Part shown: positions 5,798-11,980 of the stretch, one piece after another | How the letters are laid out: every line of letters begins with the position of its first letter | Position numbering within the stretch: position 1 is the first letter of the stretch | NCBI GenBank assembly: GCA_040222015.1 | Contig: JAVJWO010000005.1 | Span: forward strand, 16,823-80,822 | Length of the DNA: 64,000 nucleotides | Reading direction: 5' to 3' | From: Coleofasciculus chthonoplastes F2-STO-03 | GTDB taxonomy: Bacteria; Cyanobacteriota; Cyanobacteriia; Cyanobacteriales; Coleofasciculaceae | Made by a program: the position numbers and the translations under genes | The notes under the pieces: model-generated | What the model was told of the DNA's origin: nothing | The model's database searches: none | What the model saw: only the letters and a program-made list of their open reading frames with translations

Positions 5798-5923
5798 AGT
5801 TTAACGCTAAAGTGCCATCGGCAACGGGTTGAGACGCATCCATTGCTTCAAGGTCTATTTACGCTCAAAAGCCTATAGAGACGTGCCTTGGCGCGTCTTG
5901 GAACTCGCCGTTGAGGAAAAAAG
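5798..5923 (+). repeat. 126-bp direct repeat, copy 1 (left boundary of the biosynthetic island)
   Basis: Identical to 11855-11980 except for one base (5890 G vs 11947 T). Confidence 0.95.
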
Positions 5924-6016: not shown

Positions 6017-6520
6017 ATGTATGAAGTCTATGGACCAGCACCCTGGATCAAGACTGATCGTTACGGGATAACCAAGACGCTTCCACCTGAGACATCTGTA
6101 ATTTGGTACAAAGCCTTGCTGCTGTGTGCCAACGGCGATGGAGAACTGACACAAGCAGAGCGGGATTGGGTAATCGGTCACGCCACAACTTATCATCCTG
6201 AGATGAATGAAAGTCAAATTGATGAACTAATGAACTATAACGGCACCGGTTCGACTGATGACATTGAAAAACTTGTGTTCAGTGATCCACTCGCCAAAAA
6301 GGGACGTTATGTCCTCGTTTATGAAGCGATCCAAGCTTCGGCGGCTGATGGCGAATACAGCGAGGGCGAAAAAGCCACCATTCGTAAGATGGCTGGTAGG
6401 CTGGGAATTTCTGAAGCCAAGGTGACAGAACTAGAGAACCTCTATGCAGAGGAGACGGCATTGAGGGAGAAGCGTATCAAAATCTGGCATCCTGAGGGTA
6501 TACCTGGTGAGGATATGTAG
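6017..6520 (+). CDS. TerB-like (tellurite-resistance B fold) protein
   Basis: Twin motifs ANGDGELTQAE and AADGEYSEGE..IRKMAGRLG are typical of the TerB fold. Confidence 0.75.
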   Translation: MYEVYGPAPWIKTDRYGITKTLPPETSVIWYKALLLCANGDGELTQAERDWVIGHATTYHPEMNESQIDELMNYNGTGSTDDIEKLVFSDPLAKKGRYVLVYEAIQASAADGEYSEGEKATIRKMAGRLGISEAKVTELENLYAEETALREKRIKIWHPEGIPGEDM

Positions 6521-6524
6521 CACT

Positions 6525-7532
6525 CTATCTACGAAGGGCAACGACTGCATCAATTGACGGCAGTCGCTGAGTTTCAAGCAGCTCAAAGCCTGCCCGAGTG
6601 AGTAGGGATGCAAACTCAGCCAGGGTACGCTCTCCTGGTCCCCCACTCCCCCCCGGAGCGCCATGAACCAGTAGCATCTGTAGATTCTTAATCCCGATAT
6701 AAGGGTTGTTAGTGAGGTGATCCTCAATCAACTCAAAAATATAAAGCTTGTTCCCAGAGCCCATAGAGTTGCTCACATGGTTGAGAATGTTATGGGCTTG
6801 CTCGTCTGAATAGGAGTGTAAAATGCGCTTGATCATGGCATCACCCGGAATATTGGGCAGTACCCTATGGATGTCAACGCCGACAGTCTTTAGTCGTGGA
6901 ATCGGTTCGATCCGGTTGACGACATCTGGAAAATCGAAAAGCTGCCCCTGCACATCTTGATACTGACGCAGTACTCCAGCAATGAGCATCCCATTCCCAC
7001 CGGCAATTTCGGTAAGATGCTCTGATGCCGAAAAGTCGAAGCCCTGTAAAATATCCCGCACTTCGATCCGTGACATGGATTCCATGCCTTTGTCAAAAGC
7101 TGCTGCGAGTTCTTGGTGTTCTCTTAAATAATCATAAAAAAGGCGATCGCGTCCAAGTTGGTAAATACTTTTGCCAGTACGCAGCAACTGCTCCCAGAGA
7201 TCTCGCCTTTGCTGGTGTTGGGCGGATTGAGCCAATTGACAGAATTCCTGCCATGATCTGAGGGAAAATTCCGATTCTAGGGTCAAGTGTCGCGAGACAT
7301 CCGTCAGTGAAACGGTGAAATCTGACTCCATCACAAATAAGCCAAAATGGGCAAGTCCACGCAAGCAGCGATAGAGTGCCCGCTGATGTGTTCCTGTCCG
7401 CTTTACTAACTCGGATAAGGGCAAAGGATCTGCAGCAAGATAGTCAAACACCCCAAGCCCAATACAGGCTTCCGTGAAATGTGAGACGATCCGATAGTCC
7501 AATATGCAAAACATCTGTTGATAGGGAATCAT
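6525..7532 (-). CDS. SAM-dependent O-methyltransferase (COMT/Methyltransf_2 type with N-terminal dimerisation winged helix)
   Basis: LGVFDYLA N-terminus, EIAGGNG SAM motif, KRILHSYSD, GERTLAEF..LL..AGF. Confidence 0.88.
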   Translation of the reverse strand: MIPYQQMFCILDYRIVSHFTEACIGLGVFDYLAADPLPLSELVKRTGTHQRALYRCLRGLAHFGLFVMESDFTVSLTDVSRHLTLESEFSLRSWQEFCQLAQSAQHQQRRDLWEQLLRTGKSIYQLGRDRLFYDYLREHQELAAAFDKGMESMSRIEVRDILQGFDFSASEHLTEIAGGNGMLIAGVLRQYQDVQGQLFDFPDVVNRIEPIPRLKTVGVDIHRVLPNIPGDAMIKRILHSYSDEQAHNILNHVSNSMGSGNKLYIFELIEDHLTNNPYIGIKNLQMLLVHGAPGGSGGPGERTLAEFASLLTRAGFELLETQRLPSIDAVVALRR

Positions 7533-7611
7533 ACGCTATAGTACCCTCTTTATAATCCTTCGGTACATTTTTATCTCCTGCTCCGGAGTTCCCTGCTCCC
7601 CCGCTAGTCAC

Positions 7612-8304
7612 TTATTTAGGTAATTGAGACAGACACAGATTTTGTACAGCCAAGAAATGCCCGATCGCATCTTCATAGGATGTGGCAAAGGACTCGTTGA
7701 GCAACCTGCGTGTGTTCTGTAAGACTTCAGGATTGATTGGCATCAATGCCTGCTGAGATTCTTGAATTGCCTTTTCCAATGTCGTTGTTTCGCATTGGCG
7801 ATCGAGAATCCCCAATACAGTTGCTTCTGAAGCAGACAACTGTACACCGGTAAAGAGCAAGCGACGCGCAGCACCTATTCCTGTATATTTTGCCAGTCGG
7901 AATATACTCATTCCAGGCAGGTAACCTTCTTTGACTTCCGGCGCGTGGAATATTGAGCGGTTTGTTGCCACACGATAATCGCAGGCAAGAGCCAATTGAA
8001 AATGAAAACGGGTACAAAATCCATCAATACAGGCAATAGAAGCTCCTGCAAAACTTTCCACGCGCCGTAGGAATTTTTCCCACTTGCTGCAATGGTCAAT
8101 ATTGGGAGGAGCTAGTTTAGTGGTTTGTTGCTGGGTACTTAGCCCCTGAAATACGATCAGCGTACAAGGGCTTTCATCTTCCAAATAATCCATCAACTCG
8201 ATTAAATCCGACAGCAACATCTGATTCAGACTGCTCGAATCCGACCATTGTAAATGCACATTGGCGATGGTATCCTCTTCGGTCAAGTTTATATATTGCT
8301 TCAT
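7612..8304 (-). CDS. dpgB: Enoyl-CoA hydratase/isomerase, DpgB-like
   Basis: KWEKFLRRVE, LACDYRVAT, LPGMSIFRLA and C-terminal RRLL..SFATSYEDAIGHFLA resemble actinomycete DpgB; starts 2 nt after the dpgA stop. Confidence 0.75.
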   Translation of the reverse strand: MKQYINLTEEDTIANVHLQWSDSSSLNQMLLSDLIELMDYLEDESPCTLIVFQGLSTQQQTTKLAPPNIDHCSKWEKFLRRVESFAGASIACIDGFCTRFHFQLALACDYRVATNRSIFHAPEVKEGYLPGMSIFRLAKYTGIGAARRLLFTGVQLSASEATVLGILDRQCETTTLEKAIQESQQALMPINPEVLQNTRRLLNESFATSYEDAIGHFLAVQNLCLSQLPK

Positions 8305-8306
8305 TC

Positions 8307-9380
8307 TCAAAATTCCCCTAAGCAGCATTCAATGGTGGAGCCTGGTCCCATCGTTATCATGACAACAGAATCTCCACTTCGGGCTACACCCTCCTCCAAT
8401 AGTTTTTCATGGGAGAACAGAAAAGACGCAGAAGATAAGTTACCATAATTTCGTAAAATATCCGTCGTATGGCGCACATCATGTTCGGTAATATTTAAGG
8501 AATATTTAATCGAATCAATAACTTTGCGTCCACCGGAATGAATAATCCAGTGCTGAATATTGCGGCGTTTGCGGTCAAAACGCTGTAATAAATTATCCAC
8601 AGGTGTCCTAACCTGCCAACCTAGCAGGTACGGAATTTGTTTATCCAGGTATAGAGAATATTTGCCCTCCTGAAAATCAAGTCGGATGGCGTCAATGGCG
8701 TCTGGGATAATGTGGGAACTGAAGCCAAGAATCTTGGGACCGATGGGTACTACAGGAAAGGGTTTTGCACAAATCACAGCGGCGGCGGCGCCATCCCCGA
8801 ACAGGGAATTAACCACTGCAGTATTGATAGTCTCATCAATAACGTACATGGCAGAGCACACTTCCACACAAAGTAACAGACCGATTGCCTCCGGGTGGAT
8901 GGCACAAAAATTAACCACTGGTTGTAAGCCGTTTAATCCCCCGTTACACCCCATGCCCACAATATCAATACGGTGAATATCTGAACGCATATCCAAGGCT
9001 TTGATATAGAGTGCCGTGAGGCTCGGACACAGTAGACCGGTGGTGGATACTACTGCGATGTAGTCAATATCTTGAGGGATAAGTGCAACCTTTTTCAACA
9101 CCTTTTTTATGGCGGACAATCCAATATCCAGAGCGATGCGCTGGTGTTTGTCCAGTAACTCCCCAGGACTTTCGTTGGGTATACTGCCATCCGGCTCAGG
9201 CTTGGGCAGGCAAAGATGTCGGGATTTAATATGGGAATTACTGAAGATTTTGTTGATTTTTTTATCTGTTATCCCAAAAAACTCAAGCACTTCCGATTGC
9301 GTATATTTTGGCGATGGTGTTTCTGTCGCGATCGCAATTAGCCTTGGACAAATTGAAGCGGTTGGCATAATTTGCTCCAT
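8307..9380 (-). CDS. dpgA: Type III PKS, 3,5-dihydroxyphenylacetyl-CoA synthase (DpgA-like)
   Basis: DIVGMGCNGGLN (catalytic Cys), TAVVNSLFGDG, HWIIHSGGRKVIDS (His), HDVRHTT..LRNYGNLSS (Asn), TMGPGSTIE; closely matches the DpgA sequence pattern. Confidence 0.88.
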   Translation of the reverse strand: MEQIMPTASICPRLIAIATETPSPKYTQSEVLEFFGITDKKINKIFSNSHIKSRHLCLPKPEPDGSIPNESPGELLDKHQRIALDIGLSAIKKVLKKVALIPQDIDYIAVVSTTGLLCPSLTALYIKALDMRSDIHRIDIVGMGCNGGLNGLQPVVNFCAIHPEAIGLLLCVEVCSAMYVIDETINTAVVNSLFGDGAAAAVICAKPFPVVPIGPKILGFSSHIIPDAIDAIRLDFQEGKYSLYLDKQIPYLLGWQVRTPVDNLLQRFDRKRRNIQHWIIHSGGRKVIDSIKYSLNITEHDVRHTTDILRNYGNLSSASFLFSHEKLLEEGVARSGDSVVMITMGPGSTIECCLGEF

Positions 9381-10112
9381 TTACTCTGCTTGGGTTTGGC
9401 TCTGATAGAGTAGCGCTTGGGAAACCGCTTCTATACTGGCATCTCCCAGGCTAGTATTAACCGATTGCAGAGCCATTTTTGCCAGACGGATAGCCAGGGG
9501 ATTGCGTCGCGCGGCAGCTTCGGCAAGGTGAATCGCATCTTCGAGAACATGATCGCTGATTTGAGACACCAGTCCCCATTCCAAAGCTGTTGCGCTATCC
9601 ACTTTCTGTCCGAAGAGAATCATTGCCTTTGCTCTAGCTTCGTTAACAATTTTTGTCAGGCGACGAATCCCTCCGGCTGCGGGAATCAACCCCAAATCGA
9701 TTTCAGGGAGTGAAAACCAACTTGAGGCACTACAGATACGGAAATCACAAGCGAGAGCCAGTTCCAAACCACCTGCAATTGCCGGTCCTTGAATCGCAGC
9801 CACCGTGGGCCATGGCGTATTCGCCCAGTTATCAAAAAGCTGTCGGCTCAGTAAATTCAACCCATCATTATAAGATTTATTCGCCAAACTAGATATATCC
9901 GCACCACTGCAAAATACTTTCTCCCCTGCACCCGTGACTACCCCCGCACGAATTGACGGATTAGTCACAGCTGCTGCCAAATGTTCTGCGAACTGGTGGA
10001 GCATGGCATTATGGTAAGCATTAGATTTCTCTGGGCGATCGAGGATAAAGAGTGCAATGTTGTTTGATTCCCCAACCTGCTTCATTTGTACAGTACCCGA
10101 AAGTTTTGCCAT
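9381..10112 (-). CDS. Enoyl-CoA hydratase/isomerase (DpgD-like by position)
   Basis: LDRPEKSNA, FCSGADI, AIAGGLELALACD, LPEIDLGLIPAAGG crotonase motifs; stop abuts the dpgA start. Confidence 0.85.
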   Translation of the reverse strand: MAKLSGTVQMKQVGESNNIALFILDRPEKSNAYHNAMLHQFAEHLAAAVTNPSIRAGVVTGAGEKVFCSGADISSLANKSYNDGLNLLSRQLFDNWANTPWPTVAAIQGPAIAGGLELALACDFRICSASSWFSLPEIDLGLIPAAGGIRRLTKIVNEARAKAMILFGQKVDSATALEWGLVSQISDHVLEDAIHLAEAAARRNPLAIRLAKMALQSVNTSLGDASIEAVSQALLYQSQTQAE

Positions 10113-10163
10113 TTTCTTGAGTATTTTTTTGGCTTGTCTAATCCGAACCTAAAATCTTTAAAT

Positions 10164-11591
10164 TTATGAAGATAATAATTGAGCAACGGCTGCTTCCATA
10201 TCCCCCATTGATATTTCCGGGTCAGTAGGATAAGCTGCACGAGACCACTGCACCAAATATTGGGGACCTACATTGTCATCTACCGAGCTACCGCCAAAGA
10301 AACCTGTGCCGATTACTGGTCCGGGAGTCAGATTGGTAGAGACACCGCTGGAGCCTTTGACCCCCTGGGTATTCACCGCAATTCGGCAGACTGGTAATGC
10401 CGCAGTATAACGGGCTACAACTACAGGGTCATTACTGTGAATCACGGCGGAGTGCCCTTTGCCAATCAGTTCAAGCATTGCTAAAGCCGTGTCAATTGCC
10501 GCTTGTACCCCGTCAACTGTAATATATCCAATCACTGGAAACAATTTCTCTTGGCTGAGGGGTTCATCTGCACCCACGGCGTCAAGGGTAACCACCAGGC
10601 TTTTGGTATCCTCTGGTACAGAAAAACCTGCCTGCTGTGCAATCCAGAGCGCATTTTTTCCCTGAGCGGCAGGATTGACTCCAGCGTTAGAGAAAAGATA
10701 AGCACGCAATTTTTGCTCGGCTTCTCCTGTGACAAAATATCCGCCCGATCTACCCATAGCCGCTTTGAGCTGAGGATTAATGGAATGATCGGCAAGTACC
10801 ACGGATTCACAGACGCAAGGCAGTCCATTATCGAAACTGTTGCTGGCGATAATTTGTTGTGCGGCAACAGTAATGTCAGCTGACTGATGCACGAAACAGG
10901 GCACATTACCCGGTCCCATACCGATGGCGGGATTACCGGAACGGTAAGCTGCACGCACTCGGTTTGGACCACCGGTTGCCAGAATTAGGCTAACACGGGG
11001 CGATTCCATCAAACAGTTCAGGGCGAGGATACTGGGGTTATGGATGGTTTGAATCGCACCTGCGGGTGCACCAGCTTTCTCAGCCACTTCCGCCATTAAA
11101 TGAATGGCGTGTATCGAGCATTCTTTAGCCGCAGGGTGAGGGGAAAAAATAACGGTATTACGAGTCATCATGCTGACTATCGCCTTATAATACACTGTCA
11201 TCACTGGATTGGTGCTGGGTATTAGAGCAGCGATAATGCCTGCGGGCTTGGGAAAGCTAATAATTTTCTGCTCATAATCAATAACGGGATCTATAAAATC
11301 AGCAGCTTGGTATCTTTCTAGTAGACCAATTGAACAGTCAAGATTTTTTTTCACATTATCATTAACGTTACCGTAGCCAGTATCACGTACTAACCATTCA
11401 GCATAGAATTCAGCCTTCTCCTTTCCTGCATGACTCATCGCCTGAATAATTTTTTGTATCTGTGCTGTGGTATGAGTACTAAAAATACGTGCAGCCCTTT
11501 GAGCTCTATCGATTAGCCAATCGACTTCCTGTTGAATTTGATTCGATTCTGCCTGATGACTAATAGTATTCACTGCTTTTACCTTGATCAA
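10164..11591 (-). CDS. CoA-acylating aldehyde dehydrogenase / acyl-CoA reductase (AdhE-N/EutE/PduP-like)
   Basis: AALIPSTNPV, SPHP.A, LATGGP, GMGPGNVP, SFDNGLPCVCES (catalytic Cys), EKLFPV, GHSAVIHS; TTG start uncertain. Confidence 0.88.
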   Translation of the reverse strand: MIKVKAVNTISHQAESNQIQQEVDWLIDRAQRAARIFSTHTTAQIQKIIQAMSHAGKEKAEFYAEWLVRDTGYGNVNDNVKKNLDCSIGLLERYQAADFIDPVIDYEQKIISFPKPAGIIAALIPSTNPVMTVYYKAIVSMMTRNTVIFSPHPAAKECSIHAIHLMAEVAEKAGAPAGAIQTIHNPSILALNCLMESPRVSLILATGGPNRVRAAYRSGNPAIGMGPGNVPCFVHQSADITVAAQQIIASNSFDNGLPCVCESVVLADHSINPQLKAAMGRSGGYFVTGEAEQKLRAYLFSNAGVNPAAQGKNALWIAQQAGFSVPEDTKSLVVTLDAVGADEPLSQEKLFPVIGYITVDGVQAAIDTALAMLELIGKGHSAVIHSNDPVVVARYTAALPVCRIAVNTQGVKGSSGVSTNLTPGPVIGTGFFGGSSVDDNVGPQYLVQWSRAAYPTDPEISMGDMEAAVAQLLSS

Positions 11592-11854: not shown

Positions 11855-11980
11855 AGTTTAACGCTAAAGTGCCATCGGCAACGGGTTGAGACGCATCCAT
11901 TGCTTCAAGGTCTATTTACGCTCAAAAGCCTATAGAGACGTGCCTTTGCGCGTCTTGGAACTCGCCGTTGAGGAAAAAAG
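11855..11980 (+). repeat. 126-bp direct repeat, copy 2 (right boundary of the biosynthetic island)
   Basis: Matches 5798-5923 at an offset of 6057 bp. Confidence 0.95.

What the first reader, a model, noticed from the sequence alone, without database searches (positions are those of the whole stretch)
6017..11591. Stand-alone DpgA/B/D cluster rewired with an acyl-CoA reductase, O-methyltransferase and TerB-fold protein: candidate undescribed resorcinol metabolite pathway
Seen: a minus-strand operon ALDH > crotonase > type III PKS > DpgB-like > OMT (gaps 51, 0, 2 and 79 nt), plus a convergent TerB-fold gene whose stop lies 4 nt from the OMT stop. Established: in glycopeptide producers DpgA/B/D make 3,5-dihydroxyphenylacetyl-CoA from four malonyl-CoA, then DpgC and an aminotransferase make dihydroxyphenylglycine for an NRPS. 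Here DpgC, the aminotransferase and any NRPS or modular PKS are absent from the island. A CoA-acylating aldehyde dehydrogenase (FDNGLPC) and a phenolic OMT take their place. Inference: DPA-CoA is reduced to 3,5-dihydroxyphenylacetaldehyde and O-methylated, giving a small methoxy-resorcinol (aldehyde, alcohol or an orcinol-ether-type volatile). I do not know of this gene combination in cyanobacteria.
Basis: partly seen in the sequence, partly recalled or inferred. Interest (0 to 1): 0.9.

Follow-up and report, generated by a model that had tools for sequence, protein, structure and literature searches.

The report
Reductive DpgA resorcinol pathway with TerB
This six-gene island, shared by scattered marine cyanobacteria, pairs the ring-building enzyme of vancomycin-type antibiotics with an aldehyde dehydrogenase and a highly conserved small protein, and likely makes an unknown small methylated phenol instead of an antibiotic building block.

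Summary
The six genes and their spacings are real. The PKS passes the curated DpgA cut-off, and no dpgC was found in this genome or five others searched. ALDH, dpgA, dpgB-like and TerB occur together in 6 of 6 cyanobacterial dpgA loci; none of 74 other loci has the ALDH, OMT or TerB. The acylating ALDH sits where DpgC sits in two related clusters, and its tree mirrors the DpgA tree, including named Kentron and Albibeggiatoa records. All genes are under purifying selection. TerB is the most conserved gene (86-92%); its closest solved relative (2OU3) holds an aromatic aldehyde. Here the cluster is a 6-kb island between 126-bp direct repeats, missing at this site in 8 of 8 congeners. Likely route: DPA-CoA is reduced to 3,5-dihydroxyphenylacetaldehyde, handled by TerB and O-methylated; no chemical step is shown. 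Corrections: the second crotonase is not a DpgD by model score, and the clade was already noted as an orphan in Moorea and Roseofilum (2019, 2021). Verdict: new variant of a known kind, product unknown, easy to test. Bold reading (about 17%): TerB is a metal-dependent deformylase giving orcinol ethers.

The parts
5798..5923 (+). Left copy of a 126-bp direct repeat bounding the island
   Evidence: 99% identical to 11855-11980; only these two full copies in the genome; one copy joins the flanks in congener G136
6017..6520 (+). TerB-fold protein, 167 aa; most conserved gene; likely binds or processes the aromatic aldehyde
   Evidence: PF05099; fold match 2OU3 TM 0.79, Z 18.3; invariant W10 K32 D41 E48 W51 D111 E118 E140 in 30 of 30 aligned; dN/dS 0.03-0.14
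6525..7532 (-). Class I O-methyltransferase-like protein, 335 aa
   Evidence: PF00891 + PF08100; His239 kept, but LHSY replaces the usual xHDW; in 4 of 6 cyanobacterial loci
7612..8304 (-). DpgB-like crotonase (possible upstream start at 8328)
   Evidence: Best NCBIfam model DpgB, 98.8 bits, below cut-off 140; directly after dpgA in most related loci
8307..9380 (-). Type III PKS DpgA (3,5-dihydroxyphenylacetyl-CoA synthase)
   Evidence: NF042429 436.6 bits, cut-off 425; C145, H281, N314 and C175 invariant in 15 of 15 aligned
9381..10112 (-). Second crotonase, not a DpgD ortholog by model score; may play the DpgD role
   Evidence: PF00378; DpgD 122.5 vs cut-off 400, best model PaaF 160 vs 371; directly upstream of dpgA in 5 of 6 cyanobacterial loci
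10164..11591 (-). CoA-acylating aldehyde dehydrogenase (EutE/AdhE-N type), likely DPA-CoA reductase; homologs suggest the GTG at 11573 as start
   Evidence: Best hits are acetylating ALDHs; C259, E348, H380 invariant in 19 of 19 aligned; DpgA-paired copies form a 100/100 clade
11855..11980 (+). Right copy of the 126-bp direct repeat

Best explanation
The island is a stand-alone pathway in which DpgA and two crotonases likely build 3,5-dihydroxyphenylacetyl-CoA from four malonyl-CoA, the acylating dehydrogenase likely reduces it to 3,5-dihydroxyphenylacetaldehyde, the TerB-fold protein likely binds or converts that aldehyde, and the methyltransferase likely O-methylates the ring, which would give a small diffusible methoxy-resorcinol. 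Shown: gene content, family identity, intact catalytic residues, conservation, absence of dpgC, matching DpgA and ALDH trees, island boundaries. From established chemistry: DpgA makes DPA-CoA (PMC5132015). Inferred: reductive direction, TerB acting on the aldehyde, O-methylation, and the end product (aldehyde, alcohol via a host dehydrogenase, or a one-carbon-shorter orcinol or benzaldehyde ether).
For: DpgA over cut-off and nested among DpgA loci. No DpgC over cut-off in G000 or five more cluster-bearing genomes (best 56.9 bits vs 530); DpgC-like genes in 21 of 80 loci, none of the 6 cyanobacterial ones. In L008 the order is DpgC-like > crotonase > dpgA > dpgB (L009 has the same layout); here the ALDH fills that first slot. 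DpgA-paired ALDHs form a 100/100 clade of 16 of 31 rows that mirrors a 99% DpgA clade of 15 of 31 rows. One MMETSP transcript record carries both genes (P0079, P0190). TerB is in 6 of 6 cyanobacterial loci and beside dpgA in all 5 of 301 order genomes with dpgA. 2OU3 binds indole-3-carbaldehyde (PMC2954221 table). TerB relatives sit by other aldehyde makers: thioester-reductase A-T-R enzymes (L184, L186, reductase-domain hit in L180) and an arylpyruvate-decarboxylase-like gene (L124).
Against: No metabolite, enzyme or expression data. Acylating ALDHs are reversible, so sequence does not fix direction. This DpgA clade has pocket-region changes (SAMY for SAAY; the Arg of TMRT lost). Neither crotonase reaches its Dpg cut-off. 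The OMT has LHSY for xHDW, and no ortholog was found in L006's genome (best 30%). An intact 82% TerB stands alone in G698, which has no dpgA. Only 4 of 79 non-dpgA TerB loci have an aldehyde-forming neighbour; 0 of 30 other decarboxylase loci have TerB within 1.5 kb; both genes at L124 are broken. ALDH-DpgA pairing outside fetched loci rests on equal contig lengths only, and TerB could not be checked there.
Confidence: 0.6

Rival explanations
1. The ALDH runs oxidatively and supplies an acyl-CoA starter to a DpgA with an altered pocket, so the product is a different short alkylresorcinol or pyrone.
For: Clade-specific substitutions near the PKS pocket appear in the ALDH-paired clade; acylating ALDHs are reversible (established knowledge); ALDH is the first gene of the operon.
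Against: PKS still passes the DpgA cut-off; both crotonases are kept; no aldehyde-producing gene lies in the island in the six loci read; the ALDH occupies the slot of the downstream enzyme DpgC in L008.
Confidence: 0.15
2. The aldehyde or DPA-CoA is only a building block, passed to an unlinked NRPS/PKS or condensed with an amine or a second aldehyde to give a larger compound.
For: G000 has 12 condensation and 7 ketosynthase matches on other contigs; Dpg-type units start kendomycin and venemycin (PMC5132015); the OMT's top PDB hit is AlpH, recalled as a C-N bond-forming OMT-like protein.
Against: The six genes moved as one 6-kb unit into G000, and flanking genes differ among the loci with no shared partner.
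Confidence: 0.12
3. The core pathway is as proposed, but TerB is a non-catalytic accessory (carrier, self-protection or regulator) that many small aromatic clusters recruit, and the product keeps its two-carbon side chain.
For: 16 of 44 full-flank TerB loci have an ammonia-lyase, OMT, P450, FMO, HPPD or similar within 3 kb against 0.9% of random positions in G000 (families chosen after seeing the neighbours, and kin are not independent); most of these make no aldehyde; TerB is separately oriented in most loci and stands alone in G698.
Against: Lowest dN of all six genes; invariant acidic residues and a lysine; aldehyde ligand in 2OU3. This rival overlaps the best explanation and differs only in TerB's role.
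Confidence: 0.4
4. The cluster is a decaying mobile passenger without current function.
For: Broken copies exist: G185 has a split dpgA and a shortened OMT; G148 and G243 keep only a TerB with a stop and an OMT remnant; patchy distribution, 5 of 301 and 2 of 401 genomes.
Against: All six frames are intact here with catalytic residues; dN/dS 0.03-0.19 in 26 of 26 pairwise comparisons.
Confidence: 0.05

Closest known systems
DpgABCD of glycopeptide producers (balhimycin, vancomycin, teicoplanin)
   Same: DpgA over the curated cut-off, followed by a DpgB-like crotonase, with a second crotonase; predicted shared intermediate DPA-CoA (PMC5132015 passages).
   Different: No DpgC, aminotransferase or linked NRPS; second crotonase is not DpgD by score; adds an acylating ALDH, OMT and TerB.
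VemA-F (venemycin) and Ken2-7 (kendomycin) 3,5-dihydroxybenzoate cassettes
   Same: DpgA module re-used for a non-amino-acid product, with an aldehyde dehydrogenase in the cluster.
   Different: They need DpgC, a TDP decarboxylase and a benzaldehyde dehydrogenase and feed a type I PKS; here the ALDH is CoA-acylating and none of the others is present.
Orphan Moorea/Roseofilum DpgA clade (PMC6836626; PMC8086630)
   Same: Very likely the same cluster family: records named Moorena producens PAL and Roseofilum carry close TerB and ALDH orthologs; Roseofilum locus L002 has all six genes.
   Different: The passages I read mention dpgA and dpgB only, assign no product, and one suggests glycopeptide-like compounds; the ALDH-for-DpgC swap and core TerB were not in them.
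Cyanobacterial AAR/ADO alkane pathway and rose orcinol O-methyltransferases (recalled, no call)
   Same: Logic of the bold reading: thioester to aldehyde, loss of formate, then O-methylation of orcinol.
   Different: Unrelated folds (TerB, not ferritin-like); deformylation here is untested.
Npun_F6341 (PDB 2OU3), TerB-fold protein of unknown function
   Same: 36% identity, TM 0.79, Z 18.3, rmsd 2.2 over 152 residues; shared K, D, E, W residues; bound indole-3-carbaldehyde.
   Different: No function assigned in what I could read; the window protein is in a distinct 98%-supported clade of 19 of 102 rows.

Membership tests
DpgA | Score over NF042429 cut-off | tested here: met
   436.6 vs 425
DpgA | Cys-His-Asn triad and grouping with DpgA | tested here: met
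   C145, H281, N314 invariant; tree with dpgC-linked actinobacterial loci (quick tree; outgroups on very long branches)
DpgA | Makes DPA-CoA from four malonyl-CoA | not testable with these tools
   Pocket-region substitutions noted
DpgABCD / Dpg amino-acid cassette | DpgC dioxygenase present | tested here: not met
   Best 52.6 bits vs 530 in G000, 99.99% complete; none over cut-off in 5 more genomes
DpgABCD / Dpg amino-acid cassette | DpgD ortholog | tested here: not met
   122.5 vs 400, ranked below 15 other crotonase models
DpgABCD / Dpg amino-acid cassette | DpgB ortholog | tested here: inconclusive
   Best model by far and syntenic, but 98.8 vs 140
Vem/Ken 3,5-dihydroxybenzoate cassette | DpgC + TDP decarboxylase + non-acylating benzaldehyde dehydrogenase + type I PKS | tested here: not met
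   Not in the island; ALDH is of the acylating type
CoA-acylating aldehyde dehydrogenase | Family hit with catalytic Cys, Glu, His (residue roles recalled) | tested here: met
   Top hits 5J78, 3K9D, AdhE; C259, E348, H380 invariant; below the EutH and AdhE equivalog cut-offs
CoA-acylating aldehyde dehydrogenase | Reduces an aryl-acetyl-CoA | not testable with these tools
   Inferred from context and co-evolution
Phenolic O-methyltransferase (Methyltransf_2) | SAM motif and His-Asp catalytic pair | tested here: inconclusive
   GG-x-G and His239 kept, following Asp replaced by Ser
TerB fold | Fold and paired DG...E acidic motifs | tested here: met
   metal binding by these residues is recalled, not tested
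Aldehyde deformylase (ADO-like function) | O2- and metal-dependent loss of formate | not testable with these tools
   Only circumstantial:
Characterised MIBiG cluster | Match to a cluster of known product | not testable with these tools
   No MIBiG access; paper searches listed none with this gene set

The most novel reading that the evidence does not exclude
The 2OU3-type TerB proteins are a new class of metal-dependent arylacetaldehyde-cleaving enzymes. Here DPA-CoA is reduced to the aldehyde, TerB removes formate to give orcinol (or 3,5-dihydroxybenzaldehyde), and the OMT yields orcinol methyl ethers such as the rose scent 3,5-dimethoxytoluene: a bacterial route that repeats the alkane-pathway logic with unrelated folds, carried by mat and black-band-disease cyanobacteria.
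Probability: 0.17. Interest if true: 0.85.

Novelty: new variant of a known kind. Interest (0 to 1): 0.6.

Why it matters
It would be a reductive exit from DpgA chemistry beside the known DpgC routes, giving an unknown small aromatic in marine mat cyanobacteria, in Roseofilum of coral black band disease, and apparently in sulfur-oxidising Gammaproteobacteria. It also offers a defined candidate substrate for a TerB-fold family with a solved structure and no assigned function that recurs beside aromatic tailoring genes. Six small soluble proteins make it a cheap, decisive experiment.

Tried and rejected
Searched for a dpgC elsewhere: none. Tested whether arylpyruvate decarboxylase and TerB are a general pair: rejected, 0 of 30 loci. 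Looked for an enzyme of known function with the TerB fold: only 2OU3 and 2H5N stand out; this excludes nothing. A recalled report of an aerobic indoleacetaldehyde-deformylating enzyme was not found and is not used. TerB-function searches gave only the ligand table; the Ter review was not held. The Roseofilum genome paper has no T3PKS passage. Promoter and terminator scans were at chance level. GC content does not mark the island. No RNA holder was listed. Earlier-findings look-ups returned nothing. The careful DpgA tree did not finish; quick trees were used. Gene neighbourhoods of the Kentron and Albibeggiatoa records could not be fetched.
Full report
Observation. Pfam and NCBIfam name them TerB, O-methyltransferase, DpgB-like crotonase, type III PKS, crotonase and CoA-acylating aldehyde dehydrogenase. 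The PKS passes the DpgA equivalog cut-off (436.6 vs 425). The dpgB-like gene has DpgB as best model but falls short (98.8 vs 140). The upstream crotonase is not DpgD by score (122.5 vs 400). The genome is a 7.7 Mb cyanobacterium, 99.99% complete; an unlinked TerB paralog clusters at 90% with records named Coleofasciculus.

An island. A 126-bp direct repeat (5798-5923 and 11855-11980, 99% identical) bounds the cluster and has no other full copy in the genome. In 8 of 8 congeners the glycogen phosphorylase gene is followed directly by the sequence right of the island, and none of the 8 has the TerB ortholog. G136 has one copy of the repeat joining the two flanks. The near-identical copies suggest a recent gain; loss from G136 by recombination is also possible.

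Conservation. A scan of genome contigs found 371 relatives of the PKS and returned the best 80. The 6 cyanobacterial loci (70-81% identity) all carry the ALDH (71-77%), dpgB-like gene and TerB (86-90%); 5 have the upstream crotonase and 4 the OMT. None of the other 74 has an ALDH, OMT or TerB hit at E 1e-5. L003 ends inside dpgB; G465, whose cluster contig also ends in dpgB, has a 70% OMT near the end of another contig. L006's genome gave no OMT ortholog. Gene order varies: TerB is convergent, upstream or divergent. DpgA was found in 5 of 301 order genomes and 2 of 401 class genomes, G000 included; in all 5 the close TerB lies within about 3 kb. dN/dS is 0.03-0.19 in 26 of 26 comparisons, with TerB showing the lowest dN. 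Decayed copies exist in G185, G148 and G243.

ALDH in place of DpgC. No DpgC reaches the cut-off in G000 or in five other cluster-bearing genomes. DpgC-like genes are in 21 of 80 loci, including the nearest non-cyanobacterial relatives L007-L010, and in none of the six cyanobacterial loci. L008 reads DpgC-like > crotonase > dpgA > dpgB; the window reads ALDH > crotonase > dpgA > dpgB. Protein searches show close ALDH (70-75%) and DpgA (69-73%) in records named Ca. Albibeggiatoa and Ca. Kentron, and one MMETSP transcript record holds both. On 31-row trees (rows chosen from those searches), the ALDHs paired with a DpgA form a 100/100 clade whose members mirror a 99% DpgA clade. Outside fetched loci that pairing rests on equal contig lengths. 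The ALDH keeps C259, E348 and H380 (roles recalled). I take it as a dedicated partner acting on DPA-CoA. Against this, the enzyme family is reversible, and the same DpgA clade carries pocket-region changes, so another starter or product is possible.

TerB. The model (pLDDT 93) matches only 2OU3 well (TM 0.79; Z 18.3, rmsd 2.2 over 152 residues). 2OU3 was solved with indole-3-carbaldehyde (one table row of PMC2954221). W10, K32, D41, E48, W51, D111, E118 and E140 are invariant in 30 of 30 aligned sequences; that the acids bind two metals is recalled. Relatives often sit beside aromatic tailoring genes: 16 of 44 loci with full flanks (22 of 79 in all) against 0.9% of random positions in G000. 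That count is inflated by choosing the families afterwards and by kinship. Aldehyde-forming neighbours are few, 4 of 79: A-T-R reductases in L184 and L186 (the latter with an OMT and chorismate lyase), a reductase-domain hit in L180, and an indolepyruvate/phenylpyruvate decarboxylase-like gene directly upstream of a 73% TerB fragment in L124. L124 points to the same substrate class, an arylacetaldehyde, but both genes are broken and 0 of 30 other decarboxylase loci have TerB. An intact 82% ortholog stands alone in G698. TerB is therefore a core gene that likely handles the aldehyde; catalysis is a minority reading.

Mechanism. Shown: parts, residues, synteny, selection, no dpgC. Established: DpgA makes DPA-CoA and DpgB/D raise efficiency (PMC5132015, passages). 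Inferred: reduction to 3,5-dihydroxyphenylacetaldehyde, TerB binding or converting it, O-methylation (His239 kept, LHSY for xHDW), and a small diffusible product. Confidence 0.6. Rivals: oxidative ALDH with altered starter (0.15), building block for a larger compound (0.12), decaying passenger (0.05). Within the main model a non-catalytic TerB (0.4) is more likely than a deformylase (0.17).

Prior knowledge. PMC6836626 (passages) describes a Moorea + Roseofilum clade close to DpgA in ~5 kb clusters with dpgB. PMC8086630 (passages; supplement search showing the first two places per term) places the Moorea enzyme with DpgA, Ken2 and VemA and says its cluster resembles no other. Records named Moorena producens PAL and several Roseofilum strains carry the TerB and ALDH orthologs. 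PMC9967302 (passages) has no T3PKS passage; PMC10896814 was seen as one passage. Ten searches of the open library (listings only) showed no product or reductive route for this cluster. Figures, subscription journals and MIBiG were not seen, and the review's Fig. 9 may draw the ALDH and OMT.

Verdict. Real, conserved, mobile and without a known product: a new variant of Dpg chemistry, not a member of the DpgABCD cassette. The locus itself was already noticed; the ALDH-for-DpgC swap, its co-evolution with DpgA and the core TerB are what this check adds. Interest 0.6.

Noticed in passing
L124-L215 (TerB paralog loci): 2OU3-type TerB genes recur beside many small-molecule gene sets in filamentous cyanobacteria: ammonia-lyase + methyltransferase, ammonia-lyase + phenolic acid decarboxylase + P450 (L133), HPPD + OMT (L131, L156), FMO + OMT (L136, L163), A-T-R reductase + OMT + chorismate lyase (L186). 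Several look like undescribed volatile-aromatic clusters.
   Followed up: partly
L132, L137, L164, L165, L192: TerB genes from different tree branches sit in or beside methionine-salvage-type genes (RuBisCO-like protein, acireductone dioxygenase, class II aldolase, HAD hydrolase).
   Followed up: no
L119:8394-10867 (G185): dpgA is split by an interruption of about 280 bp after codon 56 and the OMT lacks its middle, while ALDH, both crotonases and TerB are intact.
   Followed up: partly
L008:4443-8360, L009, L010, L007: Bacteroidota, Rhizobium and myxobacterial loci carry divergent DpgC-like + dpgA/B cassettes (DpgC 353-375 bits, below cut-off), some beside NRPS genes.
   Followed up: partly
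L011-L074 (many Myxococcota-type MAGs): A large group of dpgA + dpgB loci has neither DpgC nor this ALDH; neighbours include gamma-glutamyltransferase, B12 radical SAM and aminotransferase genes. Product unexplained.
   Followed up: no
P0167: A 596-aa protein carries both type III PKS and crotonase domains (78% to the window DpgA): a fusion or read-through.
   Followed up: no
L216-L223: Cyanobacterial arylpyruvate-decarboxylase-like genes sit with an aldehyde dehydrogenase or an amino-acid-dehydrogenase-like gene (read from N-termini only), an Ehrlich-type set.
   Followed up: no
L265:4395-5839 (G136): G136 has a separate insertion of about 1.4 kb just upstream of glgP, about 60-80 bp from the island's site, suggesting an insertion-prone intergenic region.
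   Followed up: no
L172:6848-8896; L005:9898-11313: Unrelated genes (a multicopper oxidase; two similar predicted exported proteins) are inserted inside otherwise intact clusters.
   Followed up: no
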